From: Escherichia coli
GTDB taxonomy: Bacteria > Pseudomonadota > Gammaproteobacteria > Enterobacterales > Enterobacteriaceae
Strand: one strand, 5' to 3'
Assembly: GCF_009931435.1 (NCBI RefSeq)
Contig: NZ_CP043414.1
Length of the DNA: 64,000 nucleotides
The notes beneath the pieces were generated by a model that was not told where the DNA came from, ran no database searches, and was given only the letters and a program-made list of their open reading frames with translations. Shown here in pieces: positions 4,183 through 41,722 of the stretch. The first letter of the stretch is position 1; each line of letters opens with the position of its first letter. The position numbers and the translations under genes were made by a program.

Positions 4183-5583
4183 ATGAGCGTTGTGCCTGTA
4201 GCCGACGTACTCCAGGGCCGCGTAGCCGTTGACAGCGAAGTCACCGTGCGCGGATGGGTACGTACCCGCCGAGATTCAAAAGCTGGCATCTCCTTCCTCG
4301 CCGTTTATGACGGTTCCTGCTTTGATCCTGTACAGGCTGTCATCAATAATTCTCTGCCCAATTACAATGAAGACGTTCTGCGTCTGACCACCGGTTGCTC
4401 GGTCATTGTGACGGGTAAAGTCGTGGCGTCGCCAGGACAGGGGCAACAATTTGAAATTCAGGCCAGCAAGGTTGAAGTTGCTGGTTGGGTTGAAGATCCA
4501 GACACTTACCCGATGGCGGCAAAACGCCACAGCATTGAGTATCTGCGTGAAGTCGCTCACCTGCGTCCGCGCACAAACCTGATTGGTGCCGTCGCGCGCG
4601 TTCGCCATACGCTGGCGCAGGCGCTGCATCGCTTCTTTAACGAGCAGGGATTCTTCTGGGTTTCAACGCCACTGATTACTGCGTCTGATACCGAAGGGGC
4701 TGGCGAAATGTTCCGCGTTTCTACGCTGGATCTGGAAAACCTGCCGCGTAACGATCAGGGCAAAGTGGATTTCGACAAAGACTTCTTTGGTAAAGAGTCT
4801 TTCCTGACCGTATCTGGCCAGTTGAATGGCGAAACCTACGCTTGCGCATTGTCCAAAATTTATACCTTCGGCCCGACTTTCCGTGCTGAAAACTCCAACA
4901 CCAGCCGTCACCTGGCGGAATTCTGGATGCTGGAGCCGGAAGTGGCGTTTGCTAACCTGAACGATATCGCGGGTCTGGCTGAAGCCATGCTGAAATATGT
5001 CTTCAAAGCGGTTCTCGAAGAACGCGCTGACGACATGAAATTCTTCGCTGAACGCGTAGATAAAGATGCCGTTTCACGTCTGGAACGCTTTATTGAGGCC
5101 GATTTCGCGCAGGTGGATTACACCGACGCAGTGACCATTCTCGAAAACTGCGGCAGGAAGTTTGAAAACCCGGTTTACTGGGGCGTCGATCTCTCTTCTG
5201 AGCATGAGCGTTATCTGGCAGAAGAACACTTTAAAGCACCGGTAGTGGTTAAAAACTATCCGAAAGATATTAAAGCGTTCTATATGCGCCTTAACGAAGA
5301 CGGTAAAACCGTTGCGGCTATGGATGTTCTGGCTCCGGGCATCGGTGAAATCATTGGTGGTTCTCAGCGTGAAGAGCGTCTGGACGTGCTGGACGAGCGT
5401 ATGCTGGAAATGGGCCTGAATAAAGAAGATTACTGGTGGTATCGCGATCTGCGTCGCTACGGTACTGTTCCGCATTCCGGTTTCGGTCTTGGTTTTGAAC
5501 GCCTGATTGCTTACGTAACTGGCGTGCAAAACGTGCGTGATGTGATTCCGTTCCCACGTACTCCGCGTAACGCCAGCTTCTAA
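4183..5583 (+). CDS. asnS: Asparagine--tRNA ligase
   Basis: ORF 4138..5583; start at ATG 4183 giving [25 protein letters not shown]..., 466 aa; class II aaRS with anticodon-binding N-terminal domain. Confidence 0.96.
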
Positions 5584-5596
5584 TTTAGCGTCTTCA

Positions 5597-5624
5597 AGAG
5601 CCAGCACCCGCTGGCTCTTTTTTT
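5597..5624 (+). terminator. Rho-independent terminator downstream of asnS
   Basis: Hairpin AGAGCCAGC-accc-GCTGGCTCT followed by a T7 run immediately after the asnS stop. Confidence 0.75.
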
Positions 5625-5735
5625 ATCCTTTCTGTCAAGTTATCTGTTTGTTAAGTCAAGCAATCTATTTGCAACCCCGCCATAACGATCATCCTGTTAC
5701 GGAATATTACACTGCAACATTTGCGCACAAAAAAT

Positions 5736-5767
5736 AATCCGCATTCTTATTGCGGATTAGTTTTTTC
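5736..5767. terminator. Second terminator-like hairpin in the asnS-ompF intergenic region, possibly bidirectional
   Basis: AATCCGCA-ttcttat-TGCGGATT followed by AGTTTTTTCTT, and preceded by an A-rich run so it could also act on the opposite strand; lies about 150 bp beyond the primary asnS terminator. Confidence 0.4.
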
Positions 5768-5974
5768 TTAGCTGATAGCACAATTTTCATACTATTTTTT
5801 GGCGTTCTGGATGTCTGAACGAGGATTTAATGCCAGGTCGATAAAGTTTCCATCAGAAACAAAATTTCCTTTTAGTTAATTTAAATATAAGGAAATCATA
5901 TAAATAGATAAAAATTGCTGTAAATATCATCACGCTTCTATGGAAATATGACGGTGTTCACAAAGTTCCTTAAA

Positions 5975-6040
5975 TTTTACTTTTAGTTACATATTTTTTC
6001 TTTTTGAAACCAAATCTTTATCTTTGTAGCACTTTCACGG
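5975..6040 (+). promoter_or_regulatory. ompF promoter-proximal OmpR-binding region (F1-F3 sites)
   Basis: AT-rich block TTTACTTTTAGTTACATATTTTTTCTTTTTGAAACCAAATCTTTATCTTTGTAGCACTTTCACGG resembles the tandem OmpR boxes known upstream of ompF; a -10-like AAAGAT lies near 6065, consistent with a leader of roughly 110 nt. Confidence 0.55.
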
Positions 6041-6184
6041 TAGCGAAACGTTAGTTTGAATGGAAAGATGCCTGCAGACACATAAAGACACCAAACTCTC
6101 ATCAATAGTTCCGTAAATTTTTTTTGACAGAACTTATTGACGGCAGTGGCAGGTGTCATAAAAAAACCATGAGGGTAATAAATA

Positions 6185-7273
6185 ATGATGAAGCGCAATA
6201 TTCTGGCAGTGATCGTCCCTGCTCTGTTAGTAGCAGGTACTGCAAACGCTGCAGAAATTTATAACAAAGATGGCAACAAAGTAGATCTGTACGGTAAAGC
6301 TGTCGGTCTGCATTATTTCTCCAAGGGTAACGGTGAAAACAGTTACGGTGGCAATGGCGACATGACCTATGCCCGTCTTGGTTTTAAAGGGGAAACTCAA
6401 ATCAATTCCGATCTGACCGGTTATGGTCAGTGGGAATATAACTTCCAGGGTAACAACTCTGAAGGCACTGACGCTCAAACTGGTAACAAAACCCGTCTGG
6501 CATTCGCGGGTCTTAAATACGCTGACGTTGGTTCTTTCGATTACGGCCGTAACTACGGTGTGGTTTATGATGCACTGGGTTACACCGATATGCTGCCAGA
6601 ATTTGGTGGTGATACTGCATACAGCGATGACTTCTTCGTTGGTCGTGTTGGCGGCGTTGCTACCTATCGTAACTCCAACTTCTTTGGTCTGGTTGATGGC
6701 CTGAACTTCGCTGTTCAGTACCTGGGTAAAAACGAGCGTGACACTGCACGCCGCTCTAACGGCGACGGTGTTGGCGGTTCTATCAGCTACGAATACGAAG
6801 GCTTTGGTATCGTTGGTGCTTATGGCGCCGCTGACCGTACCAACCTGCAAGAAGCTCAACCTCTTGGCAACGGTAAAAAAGCTGAACAGTGGGCTACTGG
6901 TCTGAAGTATGACGCGAACAACATCTACCTGGCAGCGAACTACGGTGAAACCCGTAACGCTACGCCGATCACTAATAAATTTACAAACATCAGCGGCTTC
7001 GCCAACAAAACGCAAGATGTTCTGTTAGTTGCGCAATACCAGTTCGATTTCGGTCTGCGTCCGTCCATCGCTTACACCAAATCTAAAGCGAAAGACGTAG
7101 AAGGTATCGGTGATGTTGATCTGGTGAACTACTTTGAAGTGGGCGCAACCTACTACTTCAACAAAAACATGTCCACCTATGTTGACTACATCATCAACCA
7201 GATCGATTCTGACAACAAACTGGGCGTAGGTTCAGACGACACCGTTGCTGTGGGTATCGTTTACCAGTTCTAA
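6185..7273 (+). CDS. ompF: Outer membrane porin F
   Basis: 362-aa [41 protein letters not shown]... with signal peptide, aromatic-rich beta-barrel pattern and terminal F; matches OmpF. Confidence 0.97.
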
Positions 7274-36232: not shown

Positions 36233-36361
36233 TTTTATGCTCTTATCGTGGTTTATCCGCTAAAAGCATAGTCAACAGTTCATCTGCCTGGCGGCGGTGA
36301 TAGCGCCTTTGAGATAAAACCCGTATTATTGCGCGCTTTCCGTACGACTAAAGTGATTTTC

Positions 36362-38122
36362 ATGACGCAAACATTTATCCCCGGCAAAGATGCCGCTCTG
36401 GAAGATTCCATCGCTCGCTTCCAACAAAAACTTTCAGACCTCGGTTTTCAGATTGAAGAGGCCTCCTGGCTGAATCCCGTGCCTAACGTCTGGTCTGTGC
36501 ATATTCGCGACAAAGAGTGCGCACTGTGTTTTACCAACGGTAAAGGCGCAACCAAAAAAGCGGCGCTGGCTTCTGCACTCGGTGAATATTTCGAGCGTCT
36601 GTCTACCAACTACTTTTTTGCTGACTTCTGGCTGGGCGAAACCATCGCCAACGGTCCATTCGTGCATTATCCCAACGAAAAATGGTTCCCACTGACCGAA
36701 AACGACGATGTACCAGAAGGGCTGCTCGATGACCGTCTGCGCGCATTTTACGATCCGGAGAATGAACTGACCGGCAGCATGCTGATTGACCTACAATCTG
36801 GTAACGAAGATCGTGGTATTTGCGGTCTGCCGTTTACGCGCCAGTCCGACAATCAGATCGTTTATATTCCGATGAATATCATTGGTAACCTGTACGTTTC
36901 TAACGGTATGTCCGCTGGCAATACCCGCAACGAAGCGCGCGTTCAGGGATTATCTGAAGTTTTCGAACGCTACGTGAAAAACCGCATTATTGCTGAAAGC
37001 ATCAGCCTGCCAGAGATCCCGACAGACGTGCTGGCGCGTTATCCAGCGGTGGTTGAAGCGATCGAAACACTGGAAGCGGAAGGTTTCCCGATCTTCGCTT
37101 ATGATGCCTCGCTTGGCGGTCAATATCCGGTGATCTGCGTGGTACTGTTCAATCCAGCTAACGGTACCTGCTTTGCATCCTTCGGTGCACATCCTGATTT
37201 TGGCGTTGCACTGGAACGTACCGTGACCGAGTTGCTGCAAGGCCGCGGTCTGAAAGATTTGGATGTGTTTACTCCGCCAACCTTCGATGATGAAGAAGTC
37301 GCTGAACATACTAACCTCGAAACGCACTTTATCGATTCCAGCGGTTTAATCTCCTGGGACCTATTCAAGCAGGATGCTGATTATCCGTTTGTGGACTGGA
37401 GCTTCTCAGGCACCACGGAAGAAGAGTTTGCTACGCTGATGGCTATCTTCAACAAAGAAGATAAAGAAGTTTATATTGCCGATTACGAGCATCTGGGCGT
37501 TTATGCTTGCCGCATTATCGTGCCTGGCATGTCCGATATTTATCCGGCAGAAGATCTGTGGCTGGCGAATAACAGCATGGGCAGCCATTTACGTGAAACG
37601 ATTCTTTCACTCCCAGGCAGCGAGTGGGAAAAAGAAGATTACCTGAACCTCATCGAGCAACTGGATGAAGAAGGTTTTGATGACTTTACCCGCGTGCGTG
37701 AGCTATTGGGTCTGGCAACCGGGCCGGATAACGGCTGGTACACTCTGCGTATCGGTGAATTAAAGGCTATGTTGGCGCTGGCTGGTGGCGATCTGGAACA
37801 GGCTCTGGTCTGGACTGAATGGACGATGGAATTTAACTCATCAGTGTTCAGTCCGGAACGCGCCAACTATTATCGCTGTCTGCAAACGTTGTTATTACTG
37901 GCACAGGAAGAAGACCGCCAACCACTGCAATATCTGAATGCCTTCGTTCGTATGTATGGCGCAGATGCCGTAGAAGCCGCCAGTGCGGCAATGAGCGGTG
38001 AATCGGCGTTTTATGGCTTGCAACCCGTAGATAGCGATCTGCACGCGTTTGCTGCACATCAGTCGTTGTTGAAGGCCTACGAAAAGCTGCAGCGCGCCAA
38101 AGCAGCATTCTGGGCAAAATAA
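36362..38122 (+). CDS. ycaO: YcaO-domain protein (ATP-dependent amide-activating fold; linked to S12 beta-methylthiolation)
   Basis: ORF 36329..38122; start at ATG 36362 (MTQTFIPGKDAALEDSIARFQQK...), 586 aa. Confidence 0.93.
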   Translation: MTQTFIPGKDAALEDSIARFQQKLSDLGFQIEEASWLNPVPNVWSVHIRDKECALCFTNGKGATKKAALASALGEYFERLSTNYFFADFWLGETIANGPFVHYPNEKWFPLTENDDVPEGLLDDRLRAFYDPENELTGSMLIDLQSGNEDRGICGLPFTRQSDNQIVYIPMNIIGNLYVSNGMSAGNTRNEARVQGLSEVFERYVKNRIIAESISLPEIPTDVLARYPAVVEAIETLEAEGFPIFAYDASLGGQYPVICVVLFNPANGTCFASFGAHPDFGVALERTVTELLQGRGLKDLDVFTPPTFDDEEVAEHTNLETHFIDSSGLISWDLFKQDADYPFVDWSFSGTTEEEFATLMAIFNKEDKEVYIADYEHLGVYACRIIVPGMSDIYPAEDLWLANNSMGSHLRETILSLPGSEWEKEDYLNLIEQLDEEGFDDFTRVRELLGLATGPDNGWYTLRIGELKAMLALAGGDLEQALVWTEWTMEFNSSVFSPERANYYRCLQTLLLLAQEEDRQPLQYLNAFVRMYGADAVEAASAAMSGESAFYGLQPVDSDLHAFAAHQSLLKAYEKLQRAKAAFWAK

Positions 38123-38129
38123 AATCAAA

Positions 38130-38149
38130 TAGCCTACGCAATGTAGGCT
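38130..38149 (+). terminator. Hairpin downstream of ycaO (weak terminator candidate)
   Basis: TAGCCTAC-gcaa-TGTAGGCT immediately after the ycaO stop, without a strong T-run. Confidence 0.4.
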
Positions 38150-38453
38150 TAATGATTCGTCTGAGTTATATTACGGGGCGTTTTTTTAATGCCCCGCTTT
38201 ACATATATTTGCATTAATAAAATAATTGTAATTATAAAGTTAAATATCGATAATTTGTATTTAATAAATACGATCGATATTGTTACTTTATTCGCTTGGT
38301 GCTCCCTTTTAATTAACTGTTTTAGCGGAGGATGCGGAAAAAATTCAACTCATTTGTTAATTTTTAAAATTTATTTTTATTTGGATAATCAAATATTTAC
38401 TCCGTATTTGCATAAAAACCATGCGAGTTACGGGCCTATAAGCCAGGCGAGAT

Positions 38454-38467
38454 ATGATCTATATCAA
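38454..38467. promoter_or_regulatory. FNR-type site upstream of focA
   Basis: ATGAT-CTAT-ATCAA matches TTGAT-N4-ATCAA at 9 of 10 positions, with a TATAAT hexamer at 38477..38482; the focA-pflB operon is FNR-activated. Confidence 0.55.
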
Positions 38468-38527
38468 TTTCTCATCTATAATGCTTTGTTAGTATCTCGT
38501 CGCCGACTTAATAAAGAGAGAGTTAGT

Positions 38528-39385
38528 GTGAAAGCTGACAACCCTTTTGATCTTTTACTTCCTGCAGCAATGGCCAAAGTGGCCGAAGAGGCAGGTGTCT
38601 ATAAAGCAACGAAACATCCGCTTAAGACTTTCTATCTGGCGATTACCGCCGGTGTTTTCATCTCAATCGCATTCGTCTTCTATATCACAGCAACCACTGG
38701 CACAGGAACAATGCCCTTCGGCATGGCAAAACTGGTTGGCGGCATTTGCTTCTCTCTGGGGCTGATTCTTTGTGTTGTCTGCGGAGCCGATCTCTTTACT
38801 TCCACAGTGTTGATTGTTGTTGCTAAGGCGAGTGGGCGCATCACCTGGGGTCAGTTGGCGAAAAACTGGCTAAATGTCTATTTTGGCAACCTGGTCGGCG
38901 CACTGCTGTTTGTACTTTTAATGTGGCTTTCCGGCGAGTATATGACCGCGAATGGTCAATGGGGACTAAACGTCCTACAAACCGCCGACCACAAAGTGCA
39001 CCATACTTTTATTGAGGCCGTCTGCCTTGGTATCCTGGCAAACCTGATGGTATGTCTGGCAGTATGGATGAGTTATTCTGGCCGCAGCCTGATGGATAAA
39101 GCGTTCATTATGGTGCTGCCGGTCGCGATGTTTGTTGCCAGCGGTTTTGAGCACAGTATCGCAAACATGTTTATGATCCCGATGGGTATTGTAATCCGCG
39201 ACTTCGCATCTCCGGAATTCTGGACCGCTGTCGGTTCTGCACCGGAAAATTTTTCTCACCTGACCGTGATGAACTTCATCACTGATAACCTGATTCCGGT
39301 TACGATCGGTAATATTATCGGCGGTGGTTTGTTGGTTGGGTTGACATACTGGGTCATTTACCTGCGTGAAAACGATCACCATTAA
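38528..39385 (+). CDS. focA: Formate channel FocA (FNT family)
   Basis: ORF 38189..39385; start placed at the in-frame GTG 38528 giving (M)KADNPFDLLLPAAMAKVAEEAGVYKATKHP..., 285 aa; the upstream in-frame extension is AT-rich promoter DNA. Confidence 0.9.
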   Translation: MKADNPFDLLLPAAMAKVAEEAGVYKATKHPLKTFYLAITAGVFISIAFVFYITATTGTGTMPFGMAKLVGGICFSLGLILCVVCGADLFTSTVLIVVAKASGRITWGQLAKNWLNVYFGNLVGALLFVLLMWLSGEYMTANGQWGLNVLQTADHKVHHTFIEAVCLGILANLMVCLAVWMSYSGRSLMDKAFIMVLPVAMFVASGFEHSIANMFMIPMGIVIRDFASPEFWTAVGSAPENFSHLTVMNFITDNLIPVTIGNIIGGGLLVGLTYWVIYLRENDHH

Positions 39386-39439: not shown

Positions 39440-41722
39440 ATGTCCGAGCTTAATGAAAAGTTAGCCACAGCCTGGGAAGGTTTTACCAAAGGTGACTGGC
39501 AGAATGAAGTAAACGTCCGTGACTTCATTCAGAAAAACTACACTCCGTACGAGGGTGACGAGTCCTTCCTGGCTGGCGCTACTGAAGCGACCACCACCCT
39601 GTGGGACAAAGTAATGGAAGGCGTTAAACTGGAAAACCGCACTCACGCGCCAGTTGACTTTGACACCGCTGTTGCTTCCACCATCACCTCTCACGACGCT
39701 GGCTACATCAACAAAGCGTTGGAAAAAGTTGTTGGTCTGCAGACTGAAGCTCCGCTGAAACGTGCTCTTATCCCGTTCGGTGGTATCAAAATGATCGAAG
39801 GTTCCTGCAAAGCGTACAACCGCGAACTGGACCCGATGATCAAAAAAATCTTCACTGAATACCGTAAAACTCACAACCAGGGCGTGTTCGACGTTTACAC
39901 TCCGGACATCCTGCGTTGCCGTAAATCCGGTGTTCTGACCGGTCTGCCAGATGCTTATGGCCGTGGTCGTATCATCGGTGACTACCGTCGCGTTGCGCTG
40001 TACGGTATCGACTACCTGATGAAAGACAAATACGCTCAGTTCACCTCTCTGCAGGCTGATCTGGAAAACGGCGTAAACCTGGAACAGACTATCCGTCTGC
40101 GCGAAGAAATCGCTGAACAGCACCGCGCTCTGGGTCAGATGAAAGAAATGGCTGCGAAATACGGCTACGACATCTCTGGTCCGGCTACCAACGCTCAGGA
40201 AGCTATCCAGTGGACTTACTTCGGCTACCTGGCTGCTGTTAAGTCTCAGAACGGTGCTGCAATGTCCTTCGGTCGTACCTCCACCTTCCTGGATGTGTAC
40301 ATCGAACGTGACCTGAAAGCTGGCAAGATCACCGAACAAGAAGCGCAGGAAATGGTTGACCACCTGGTCATGAAACTGCGTATGGTTCGCTTCCTGCGTA
40401 CTCCGGAATACGATGAACTGTTCTCTGGCGACCCGATCTGGGCAACCGAATCTATCGGTGGTATGGGCCTCGACGGTCGTACCCTGGTTACCAAAAACAG
40501 CTTCCGTTTCCTGAACACCCTGTACACCATGGGTCCGTCTCCGGAACCGAACATGACCATTCTGTGGTCTGAAAAACTGCCGCTGAACTTCAAGAAATTC
40601 GCCGCTAAAGTGTCCATTGACACCTCTTCTCTGCAGTATGAGAACGATGACCTGATGCGTCCGGACTTCAACAACGATGACTACGCTATCGCTTGCTGCG
40701 TAAGCCCGATGATCGTTGGTAAACAAATGCAGTTCTTCGGTGCGCGTGCAAACCTGGCGAAAACCATGCTGTACGCAATCAACGGCGGCGTTGACGAAAA
40801 ACTGAAAATGCAGGTTGGTCCGAAATCTGAACCGATCAAAGGCGACGTCCTGAACTACGATGAAGTGATGGAGCGCATGGATCACTTCATGGACTGGCTG
40901 GCTAAACAGTACATCACCGCACTGAACATCATCCACTACATGCACGACAAGTACAGCTACGAAGCCTCTCTGATGGCGCTGCACGACCGTGACGTTATCC
41001 GCACCATGGCATGTGGTATTGCTGGTCTGTCCGTTGCTGCTGACTCCCTGTCTGCAATCAAATATGCGAAAGTTAAACCGATTCGTGACGAAGACGGTCT
41101 GGCTATCGACTTCGAAATCGAAGGCGAATACCCGCAGTTTGGTAACAACGACCCGCGTGTAGATGACCTGGCGGTTGACCTGGTAGAACGTTTCATGAAG
41201 AAAATTCAGAAACTGCACACCTACCGTGACGCAATCCCGACTCAGTCTGTTCTGACCATCACTTCTAACGTTGTGTATGGTAAGAAAACTGGTAACACCC
41301 CAGACGGTCGTCGTGCTGGCGCGCCGTTCGGACCGGGTGCTAACCCGATGCACGGTCGTGACCAGAAAGGTGCTGTAGCATCTCTGACTTCCGTTGCTAA
41401 ACTGCCGTTTGCTTACGCTAAAGATGGTATCTCCTACACCTTCTCTATCGTTCCGAACGCACTGGGTAAAGACGACGAAGTTCGTAAGACCAACCTGGCT
41501 GGTCTGATGGATGGTTACTTCCACCACGAAGCATCCATCGAAGGTGGTCAGCACCTGAACGTTAACGTGATGAACCGTGAAATGCTGCTCGACGCGATGG
41601 AAAACCCGGAAAAATATCCGCAGCTGACCATCCGTGTATCTGGCTACGCAGTACGTTTCAACTCGCTGACTAAAGAACAGCAGCAGGACGTTATTACTCG
41701 TACCTTCACTCAATCTATGTAA
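39440..41722 (+). CDS. pflB: Pyruvate formate-lyase (formate C-acetyltransferase 1)
   Basis: 760-aa [55 protein letters not shown]... with the C-terminal glycyl-radical motif RVSGYAV. Confidence 0.98.

What the first reader, a model, noticed from the sequence alone, without database searches (positions are those of the whole stretch)
38160..38530. Very AT-rich focA leader with an FNR box and an apparent GUG start
The 370 bp upstream of focA are strongly AT-rich with runs of short A/T tracts, contain a near-consensus FNR site (38454..38467) next to a TATAAT hexamer, and the coding frame of focA is open for 113 codons upstream of the chosen start. Only the in-frame GTG at 38528 yields the conserved FocA N-terminus (KADNPFDLL), so translation likely starts at GUG. 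That is a low-efficiency start for the first gene of an operon whose second gene (pflB) is very highly expressed, consistent with differential expression within one transcript. AT-rich curved DNA here is also a candidate H-NS or IHF target.
Basis: partly seen in the sequence, partly recalled or inferred. Interest (0 to 1): 0.25.

Follow-up and report, generated by a model that had tools for sequence, protein, structure and literature searches.

The report
Known focA promoter-leader with GUG start

Summary
Window 38123-38527 is the 405-bp ycaO-focA intergenic region of E. coli, about 99% identical to K-12. It is the most AT-rich stretch of the window (GC about 0.30). ATGATCTATATCAA lies at 38454-67 and TATAAT at 38477-82. 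The focA frame is open 113 codons back to an ATG, and 121 codons back to a stop.

The GTG at 38528 is the real start. RefSeq annotates it and the solved FocA structure begins there. It is GTG in 79 of 79 loci from about 30 enterobacterial genera, while the upstream frame is broken by stops and frameshifts, even within E. coli. A published GUG-to-AUG mutant makes about 10-fold more FocA.

The FNR box is a published ChIP-seq-bound site. Its spacing makes TAGTAT (38490-95) the -10 element, not TATAAT.

The AT-rich DNA holds a published four-repeat ArcA site (38215-68), a conserved IHF-consensus core (38387-99) and NarL heptamers. It is transcribed from a distal promoter (start about 38180).

H-NS binding and intrinsic curvature found no support.

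The leader also carries a conserved upstream Shine-Dalgarno (38327-31), described in a 2025 preprint.

Verdict: correct, already known, low interest. One residual curiosity is a 33-nt block around the start codon that is invariant in the genomes compared.

The parts
38131..38149 (+). Perfect palindromic hairpin AGCCTAC-GCAAT-GTAGGCT directly after the ycaO stop codon (38120-22).
   Evidence: Sequence. Flagged as terminator-like on the minus strand. The right arm GTAGGC is conserved in most genera of alignment A2. Function not tested.
38167..38172 (+). TATATT, a -10-like hexamer for the distal focA promoter. It is inferred to be the 'promoter 7' of the Sawers-laboratory papers. The transcription start is about 38180, which is -348 from the GTG.
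   Evidence: TATATTAC is nearly invariant in 21 of 24 genera. The start site 954814 used by the 30S-seq preprint maps to 38180. An anaerobically increased sigma70 ChIP peak at 954,032 (U00096.2) maps to about 38185. The equation with 'promoter 7' is inference.
38174..38196 (+). ycaO intrinsic terminator hairpin, CGGGGC / GCCCCG arms. It is followed by a T-run in most genera; the T-run is degenerate in E. coli. The distal focA transcript starts inside its loop.
   Evidence: The GGGG/CCCC core is kept in 16 genera, with a G-C to A-U compensatory change in two. That transcripts starting at 38180 escape termination because they lack the 5' arm is inference.
38215..38268 (+). ArcA-P binding site with four direct repeats. 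Core repeats are TGTAA 38227, AGTTA 38238 and CGATA 38248.
   Evidence: Park 2013 predicted the site 953949-954002 (U00096.2) under an ArcA ChIP peak, with the same sequence. The TG, GTTA and GT repeat cores are invariant in 24 genera. The window carries 2 SNPs relative to K-12 inside it.
38281..38317 (+). Conserved TGTTAC ... TTAATTAAC block. It is ArcA/NarL-like and its binding protein is not assigned here.
   Evidence: Invariant or nearly invariant columns in A2.
38324..38332 (+). Upstream Shine-Dalgarno (uSD) AGCGGAGGA, with GGAGG at 38327-31 (-201). It is a tRNA-independent 30S binding site in the long leader.
   Evidence: It is the strongest anti-SD duplex in the leader, -9.5 kcal/mol against -4.9 at the true SD. 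The strongest site lies at -215..-190 in 64 of 76 loci. The 30S-seq preprint reports a footprint starting at -213, an in vitro toeprint, and an about 10-fold loss of a focA-lacZ fusion when the uSD is mutated.
38357..38399 (+). 26-bp pure A/T run followed by the IHF consensus core AATCAAATATTTA (38387-99).
   Evidence: Exact match to WATCAANNNNTTR (4 in the window against 2.7 expected, so the motif alone is not significant). The CA and TTA core positions are invariant in 24 genera. A literature statement lists IHF among the regulators of PFL biosynthesis. The title of Sirko 1993 says the same, but the paper is not held.
38454..38467 (+). FNR binding site ATGATCTATATCAA of the proximal, class II promoter.
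   Evidence: Present at -74 to -76 in 76 of 79 loci. Myers 2013 lists predicted site 953750 TTGATATAGATCAT under an FNR ChIP-seq peak, at -40.5 from the start site, with the operon directly activated.
38477..38482 (+). TATAAT hexamer, at about -25..-20 of the proximal promoter. It overlaps a database-annotated NarL heptamer (ATAATGC) and is probably not the -10.
   Evidence: Sequence. NarL heptamer list for focA. The spacing argument follows from the -40.5 position. Invariant in 24 genera.
38490..38495 (+). TAGTAT, the inferred -10 of the FNR-dependent proximal promoter. The start is about 38501-38502, giving a leader of about 26 nt.
   Evidence: Centre of the FNR site (38460.5) plus 40.5 or 41.5. 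Invariant in 24 genera. A sigma70 ChIP peak maps to about 38522. No start-site mapping data were readable here.
38516..38522 (+). Weak Shine-Dalgarno GAGAGAG, 5 nt before the GTG.
   Evidence: -4.9 kcal/mol anti-SD duplex. Invariant in all loci. Mutating it abolishes the focA-lacZ fusion.
38526..38531 (+). GUGUGA. This holds an out-of-frame GUG-UGA start-stop (38526-31) that overlaps the true GUG start codon (38528-30).
   Evidence: Sequence. Noted in the supplement of the 30S-seq preprint. Invariant in 79 loci.
38528..39385 (+). focA coding sequence (285 aa, formate channel, FNT family).
   Evidence: 100% identical to PDB 3KCU over residues 1-285. Pfam PF01226, E 2e-78. RefSeq annotation.

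Best explanation
The interval is the ycaO-focA intergenic region of E. coli. It is the promoter-regulatory region and long 5' leader of the focA-pflB operon.

Transcription starts at two places:
- A proximal class II FNR-dependent promoter has its FNR site at 38454-67, an inferred -10 TAGTAT at 38490-95, and a start at about 38501.
- A distal promoter has -10-like TATATT at 38167-72 and a start at about 38180, inside the loop of the ycaO terminator.

The AT-rich DNA between the two promoters is a binding platform at the DNA level. It carries ArcA-P repeats (38215-68), an IHF core (38387-99) and NarL heptamers. At the RNA level it is a 348-nt leader.

FocA translation starts at GUG 38528. That start sits behind a weak GAGAGAG Shine-Dalgarno and overlaps an out-of-frame GUG-UGA start-stop, which keeps channel synthesis about 10-fold below what an AUG would give. 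A strong conserved upstream SD at about -201 binds 30S subunits and boosts initiation on the long transcript.

Shown by published experiment: the GUG start and its roughly 10-fold effect, FNR and ArcA occupancy, sigma70 peaks at both promoters, and the uSD effect.
Shown here: the conservation patterns and the lack of any coding constraint upstream.
Inferred: the choice of -10 hexamers, the equation of the distal promoter with 'promoter 7', and escape of the distal transcript from the ycaO terminator.
For: Identity of the region and annotated start.

GUG start:
- GTG is conserved in 79 of 79 loci. In-frame stops lie 4-12 codons upstream in several genera, and indels of 1-2 nt shift the frame (alignment).
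- Within E. coli the upstream open run varies: 121, 76 and 48 codons.
- PDB FocA begins at this residue. The upstream 113 aa have no Pfam or PDB match.
- A GUG-to-AUG strain makes about 10-fold more FocA.

FNR: consensus match, conserved in 76 of 79 loci, ChIP-seq-bound site at -40.5 with direct activation.

Two promoters: sigma70 ChIP peaks map to about 38522 and about 38185. The start site at 954814, which is 38180, comes. TATATTAC is conserved.

ArcA: a four-repeat site under a ChIP peak, with repeat cores invariant.

IHF: exact consensus with an invariant core and a literature statement.

NarL: heptamers listed.

uSD.
Against: - The primary mapping papers (Sawers & Bock 1989; Sawers 1993; Sirko 1993; Drapal & Sawers 1995; Kaiser & Sawers 1995; Suppmann & Sawers 1994) are not in the held library. 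Promoter 6/7 coordinates and the in vitro IHF footprint therefore rest on titles, secondary citations and my spacing arguments.
- Motif counts for FNR and IHF are not above chance on their own.
- The consensus promoter scan found neither promoter, as expected for activator-dependent promoters.
- Myers 2013 lists no IHF, H-NS or Fis enrichment overlapping the FNR site, so in vivo IHF occupancy under those conditions is not documented here.
- The uSD work is a preprint.
- The 121-codon stop-free frame is statistically unusual (1 in 20000 shuffles). I explain it only as a non-conserved accident.
Confidence: 0.9

Rival explanations
1. FocA is made with an N-terminal extension. Translation would start upstream in the open frame, at ATG 38189 (+113 aa) or at one of the in-frame TTGs (38486, 38408, 38381, 38354, 38255).
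For: The frame is stop-free for 121 codons in 30%-GC DNA where the other frames carry 10-13 stops. This occurred in 1 of 20000 shuffles. With a start site at 38180, ATG 38189 would lie on the long transcript.
Against: - The open run is 76 codons in K-12 and 48 in another E. coli, and 4-86 in other genera, with frame-shifting indels.
- The 113 aa match no Pfam family and no PDB chain.
- The preprint summarises 70S ribosomes as lying almost exclusively on coding sequences, and 30S binding at the upstream SD needs no initiator tRNA.
- A strain carrying a GUG-to-AUG change at the annotated start is reported to make about 10-fold more FocA.
Confidence: 0.02
2. TATAAT (38477-82) is the working -10 of the proximal promoter, with a start near 38489. 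The FNR site would then be centred near -28.5 and FNR would act differently, for example by occluding an FNR-independent promoter.
For: TATAAT is a perfect consensus hexamer and is invariant in 24 genera. The FNR left half-site ATGATC lies 17 bp upstream, where a -35 would be.
Against: - Myers 2013 places the FNR site at -40.5 from the mapped start and classes the operon as directly activated.
- TAGTAT at 38490-95 is equally invariant and correctly spaced for a class II promoter.
- TATAAT overlaps a database-annotated NarL heptamer, which gives another reason for its conservation.
Confidence: 0.08
3. The AT-rich tract is mainly an H-NS-silenced or intrinsically curved element rather than a specific activator platform.
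For: GC of 0.22-0.30, many A/T tracts and a 26-bp pure A/T run. AT-rich DNA is the general H-NS preference (established knowledge).
Against: - No H-NS, IHF or Fis enrichment is listed over the focA FNR site.
- Myers 2013 lists the focA FNR peak in both the wild type and the hns/stpA mutant, with values 1.72 and 1.43 in columns whose headers I did not read.
- There is no 10-11 bp A-tract phasing.
- The region is vertically conserved with discrete invariant motifs that match the ArcA and IHF consensus, not a generic AT-rich island.
Confidence: 0.05

Closest known systems
E. coli K-12 focA-pflB (pfl) operon promoter-regulatory region (promoters 6 and 7; FNR, ArcA, IHF, NarL)
   Same: Same locus. 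The intergenic length is 405 bp in both and there are 5 substitutions relative to MG1655. The FNR site sequence is the one in Myers 2013, the ArcA site matches Park 2013, and the start codon is the same GTG.
   Different: Only strain-level SNPs. Two fall in the ArcA/NarL site (K-12 AAGGTTAA against AAAGTTAA here; K-12 TATCGGT against TATCGAT here). One removes the K-12 in-frame TGA at -231, which is why the upstream frame is longer here.
focA upstream ribosome binding site (uRBS at -213 with its uSD) of the 30S-seq preprint, doi 10.1101/2025.04.04.647229
   Same: GGAGG lies at -201 inside the reported footprint, with the same weak GAG-type SD and overlapping GUGUGA at the start.
   Different: Nothing differs in sequence. 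I add that the strongest anti-SD site lies at -215..-190 in 64 of 76 enterobacterial loci.
Class II FNR-activated promoters (for example dmsA, narG, yfiD)
   Same: A 14-bp TTGAT-N4-ATCAA-type site centred about 40.5-41.5 bp upstream of the start, overlapping the -35 position, with a non-consensus -35.
   Different: It operates together with a second promoter about 320 bp upstream and with ArcA and IHF sites in between. The left half-site is ATGAT rather than TTGAT.
GUG-initiated, deliberately under-translated first genes of operons
   Same: A non-AUG start plus a weak SD reduces output about 10-fold relative to AUG.
   Different: Here the start overlaps an out-of-frame GUG-UGA start-stop and is helped by a distant upstream SD.

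Membership tests
Class II FNR-dependent promoter | Match to the FNR consensus TTGAT-N4-ATCAA | tested here: met
   ATGATCTATATCAA has 1 mismatch. It is conserved in 76 of 79 loci.
Class II FNR-dependent promoter | Site centred about -41.5 from the transcription start, overlapping the -35 position | tested here: inconclusive
   Myers 2013 lists -40.5. A correctly spaced, invariant TAGTAT -10 exists. I could not read primary 5'-end mapping data.
Class II FNR-dependent promoter | FNR occupancy in vivo and FNR-dependent expression | not testable with these tools
   Published: a ChIP-seq peak at the site, and focA (ratio 0.145) and pflB (0.21) appear in an expression table of that paper whose headers I did not read.
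GUG (non-AUG) translation start | Start codon conserved, with no alternative in-frame start compatible with the conserved N-terminus | tested here: met
   GTG in 79 of 79 loci. Stops lie 4-5 codons upstream in Mangrovibacter and Kluyvera with no start codon in between. Residues 2-8 are invariant.
GUG (non-AUG) translation start | Experimental proof of initiation at that codon | not testable with these tools
   Published: strain REK702 (GUG converted to AUG) gives about 10-fold more FocA. 30S toeprinting at the start needs initiator tRNA.
IHF binding site | Core WATCAANNNNTTR with an A/T-rich element upstream | tested here: met
   AATCAAATATTTA at 38387-99, preceded by a 26-bp A/T run. The CA and TTA positions are invariant in 24 genera.
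IHF binding site | IHF binding and IHF-dependent regulation | not testable with these tools
   Literature statement and paper title only. Myers 2013 lists no IHF ChIP enrichment overlapping the nearby FNR site.
H-NS target / intrinsically curved DNA | Helically phased A-tracts, or H-NS occupancy | tested here: not met
   No 10-11 bp periodicity. No H-NS enrichment is listed at the FNR site. The FNR peak is listed in both the wild type and the hns/stpA mutant. H-NS ChIP over 38200-38400 was not examined directly.
ArcA-P direct-repeat site | Two or more TGTTA-like repeats at 10-11 bp spacing under an ArcA ChIP peak | tested here: met
   Repeats at 38227, 38238 and 38248 have invariant cores. The same 54-bp site with four repeats lies under a ChIP peak in Park 2013.
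Upstream standby 30S site (uRBS/uSD) | Strong anti-SD complementarity far upstream of the start, with no usable start codon | tested here: met
   -9.5 kcal/mol at -204, and the strongest site lies at -215..-190 in 64 of 76 loci. The ATG abutting the SD is not conserved. The functional data are published.
Formate/nitrite transporter (FNT) family, FocA | Pfam PF01226 domain and identity to solved FocA | tested here: met
   PF01226 at E 2e-78. 285 of 285 residues match 3KCU.
Known RNA families (Rfam) | A covariance-model match in the leader | tested here: not met
   No match reached its gathering score in the region. The only weak hit is a spurious AT-rich rRNA match at E 0.3.

The most novel reading that the evidence does not exclude
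The invariant 33-nt block AGAGAGAGTTAGTGTGAAAGCTGACAACCCTTT runs from the weak SD through GUGUGA into codons 2-7. It includes every synonymous site in that span and is unchanged in the genomes compared (75 for the coding part). It is paired with a positionally conserved upstream SD at about -204.

Together these could be one dedicated translation-control device whose mechanism is still unresolved. Candidate components are standby 30S loading, a start-stop decoy, and possibly the docking site for the sRNA RprA, which captures focA mRNA in three interactome studies. Such a device would set the FocA:PflB ratio.

The published work explains the GUG and the uSD. It does not explain why the first 20 coding nucleotides cannot vary.
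Probability: 0.25. Interest if true: 0.4.

Novelty: already known. Interest (0 to 1): 0.12.

Why it matters
FocA and PflB must be made in very different amounts from one operon, and too much formate channel is harmful. The GUG start, the weak SD and the multi-promoter region are how E. coli sets that ratio under anaerobiosis.

All of this is established. The GUG-to-AUG strain is cited to a 1994 paper, genome-wide FNR and ArcA maps date from 2013, and the upstream 30S site from a 2025 preprint. The finding therefore adds no new biology.

Its value is as a positive control.

The one piece that might repay work is the nucleotide-level invariance of the initiation region across about 30 genera.

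Tried and rejected
1. **Primary Sawers-laboratory papers.** I looked up PMC3624525, PMC206030, PMC177329, PMC206654 and PMC177079. None is held, so promoter 6/7 coordinates come from secondary sources and spacing arguments.
2. **Rfam.** Nothing real turned up in the leader.
3. **RNA structure.**
   - The 391-nt leader folds only modestly better than shuffles (z = -2.2).
   - The short proximal-promoter leader with the initiation region is unstructured (z = +1.0), so structure does not explain the invariant start region.
   - A possible CUCC...GGAG hairpin hiding the upstream SD showed no consistent pairing across genera by eye. I dropped it.
4. **RprA pairing.** RprA captures focA mRNA in published interactome studies. 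Duplex prediction against the leader was no better than shuffles: best -17 to -19 kcal/mol against a shuffle mean of -22. No site could be assigned.
5. **A-tract phasing / curvature.** Not above shuffles.
6. **Consensus promoter scan.** Only chance-level hits, and neither real promoter was found.
7. **A second strong FNR site for the distal promoter.** No match with 2 or fewer mismatches lies in 38123-38450. The sequence 41.5 bp upstream of 38180 is the ycaO hairpin, which is not FNR-like.
8. **The stop-free 121-codon frame as a sign of coding.** Rejected, because it is not conserved even within E. coli.
9. **Searching beyond Enterobacteriaceae for the age of the GUG start.** Not done. The single genome scan returned only loci with at least 89% FocA identity, and a further protein-database search was not justified by what it could change.
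Full report
**What the region is.**
- The interval lies between ycaO (36329-38122) and focA, which is followed by pflB (39440-41722) and pflA.
- A 701-nt query across it matches 5425 of 5426 complete E. coli genomes, where it is annotated as ycaO and focA.
- The intergenic region is 405 bp, as in K-12 MG1655, and differs from K-12 at five positions.
- No complete E. coli genome is identical over 38150-38420; the best reaches 99.3%. The window therefore comes from an E. coli lineage with a few private SNPs.

**Check of the observation.**
- GC falls to 0.215 at 38200-38399.
- ATGATCTATATCAA is at 38454-67, one mismatch from the FNR consensus. TATAAT is at 38477-82.
- The ORF list gives a 398-aa frame from ATG 38189, which is 113 extra codons.
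- The frame is in fact stop-free for 121 codons, while the other five frames carry 10-13 stops each.
- Such a run abutting the gene occurred once in 20000 dinucleotide-preserving shuffles.

**Is the upstream frame coding? No.**
- One genome scan with FocA returned 80 loci from about 30 genera of Enterobacteriaceae.
- In 79 of 79 usable loci the codon aligned to residue 1 is GTG. It is preceded by the invariant AGAGAGAGTTAGT and followed by KADNPFD.
- The upstream in-frame open run ranges from 4 to 86 codons. Mangrovibacter has a stop 4 codons upstream, Kluyvera 5, and Klebsiella and Raoultella 12. No start codon lies in between.
- The distance from the FNR box to the GTG is 74, 75 or 76 nt, which breaks the frame.
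- Within E. coli the run is 121 codons here, 76 in K-12 (a TGA at -231) and 48 in another strain.
- The 113 upstream residues match no Pfam family. In a PDB search with the whole 398-aa frame, only residues 114-398 matched. Those residues are 100% identical to E. coli FocA 3KCU, which begins MKADNPFDLL.
The long open frame is best read as a strain-level accident.

**Already known experimentally.**
- A Sawers-laboratory strain table lists REK702 as 'GUG codon of focA converted to AUG' and cites the 1994 Suppmann and Sawers paper. [quoted passage not shown]
- A 2025 preprint on 30S-seq studied this very leader:
  - It uses a transcription start at 954814, which is window 38180, giving a 348-nt leader.
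  - It shows that 30S binding at the start needs initiator tRNA.
  - It describes the initiation region as three overlapping poor GAG Shine-Dalgarno motifs and two overlapping GUGs. The first GUG is out of frame and runs straight into UGA.
  - It identifies an upstream 30S site with its 5' end at -213 and a strong conserved SD. Mutating that SD lowers a focA-lacZ fusion about 10-fold.
- I located that SD at GGAGG 38327-31.
  - It is the strongest anti-SD site in the leader, at -9.5 kcal/mol against -4.9 for the true SD.
  - The strongest site falls at -215..-190 in 64 of 76 loci.
  - The ATG that abuts it in E. coli is not conserved, which agrees with the preprint's view that no translation starts there.

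**The FNR site and the promoters.**
- Myers et al. 2013 list the same 14-mer, on the other strand as TTGATATAGATCAT at 953750 in U00096.2, under an FNR ChIP-seq peak. They place it at -40.5 from the start site and class focA-pflB as directly activated.
- The site centre is 38460.5, so the start is about 38501 and the -10 must be TAGTAT at 38490-95. TATAAT then sits at about -25..-20 and overlaps a database-annotated NarL heptamer.
- Both hexamers lie in a 19-nt invariant block, so conservation cannot choose between them. The spacing and the published position do.
- The same paper's sigma70 table has two anaerobically increased peaks at focA. They map to about 38522 and about 38185.
- The second peak coincides with the 38180 start site. 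It also coincides with a nearly invariant TATATTAC (38167-74) just upstream of the ycaO terminator hairpin.
- That hairpin keeps its GGGG/CCCC core in 16 genera, with one compensatory pair.
- Transcription starting at 38180 would begin in the loop and lack the 5' arm. I infer that it escapes the terminator that stops ycaO transcripts.
- I take this distal promoter to be the 'promoter 7' named in the Sawers papers. Those papers are not held, so this is inference.

**What the AT-rich DNA does.** The 24-genus alignment shows discrete invariant motifs separated by free-drifting sequence.
- TGTAA, AGTTA and CGATA at 38227, 38238 and 38248 have the 10-11 bp spacing of ArcA direct repeats. Park et al. 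2013 list the same 54-bp stretch (window 38215-68) as a four-repeat ArcA site under a ChIP peak.
- AATCAAATATTTA at 38387-99 is an exact IHF consensus, preceded by a 26-bp pure A/T run. Its CA and TTA positions are invariant.
- Secondary literature states that IHF, FNR and ArcAB raise PFL synthesis and NarL represses it.
- H-NS found no support. Myers lists no NAP enrichment over the focA FNR site. The focA FNR peak is listed in both the wild type and the hns/stpA mutant.
- The A/T tracts show no helical phasing.
- The motif counts for FNR and IHF are not above chance on their own. Position, conservation and published occupancy carry the argument.

**Differential expression.** The 30S-seq table lists pflB 5' ends at 953925 and 953589, which are window 39069 and 39405, inside focA. 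From memory, Sawers described multiple internal promoters or processing sites there.

**A residual curiosity.**
- Across the 75 complete focA sequences, the first 20 nt of the coding sequence are invariant, including all synonymous sites of codons 2-6. The next longest invariant run in the gene is 8 nt.
- Joined to the invariant SD region, this makes a 33-nt unchanging block.
- It is not explained by RNA structure.
- RprA captures focA mRNA in MAPS, RIL-seq and TRIC-seq, but I could not predict a pairing site better than chance.
- This is the only part of the locus where something unexplained remains.

**Verdict.** The feature is already known. Interest is low.

Noticed in passing
window 38510-38547: A 33-nt block (AGAGAGAGTTAGTGTGAAAGCTGACAACCCTTT) is invariant in the loci compared. 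The first 20 nt of the focA coding sequence never vary in 75 genomes, while the next longest invariant run in the gene is 8 nt. RNA structure does not explain it.
   Followed up: partly
window 38162-38527: The focA frame is stop-free for 121 codons in 30%-GC intergenic DNA (1 in 20000 shuffles). The run is only 76 codons in K-12, 48 in another E. coli and 4-86 in other genera, so it is a lineage-specific accident rather than coding sequence.
   Followed up: yes
window 38167-38196: The distal focA start site (38180) and its conserved -10-like TATATTAC sit on top of the ycaO terminator hairpin. Transcripts starting there would lack the 5' arm of the hairpin and so could not form the terminator.
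   Followed up: partly
window 39335-39370 (focA codons 270-280): This stretch has the second-lowest synonymous variation in focA. It lies just upstream of the pflB start and next to a published pflB 5' end at about 39405, which suggests overlapping regulatory or processing signals inside the coding sequence.
   Followed up: no
L084 1752-2449 (E. coli TUM14668); equivalent to window about 38245: An IS1 element is inserted in the ycaO-focA intergenic region, within the ArcA-site area. This recalls the adaptive IS insertions upstream of focA reported during mouse-gut colonisation (PMC5094792).
   Followed up: partly
window 52127-52261: A full-length Rfam STnc130 sRNA match (141 bits) contains an FNR-like site, TTGTTCGGTATCAA, at 52207-20. 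From memory of the gene order and the published dmsA FNR site, this is probably the dmsA promoter/leader; I did not check it.
   Followed up: no
window 5561-6290: This is the only other strongly AT-rich stretch of the window (GC about 0.31). It is the asnS-ompF intergenic region.
   Followed up: partly
window 38238 and 38250: Two SNPs relative to K-12 fall inside the published ArcA site: K-12 AAGGTTAA against AAAGTTAA here, and K-12 TATCGGT against TATCGAT here. The second also changes a database-annotated NarL heptamer. No complete E. coli genome is identical to the window over 38150-38420.
   Followed up: no
window 38131-38149: A perfect 7-bp-arm palindrome, AGCCTAC-GCAAT-GTAGGCT, lies 9 nt after the ycaO stop codon. 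It is partly conserved, with apparent compensatory changes in Citrobacter koseri. Its role is unknown; it could be a second 3' hairpin of ycaO or a protein binding site.
   Followed up: no
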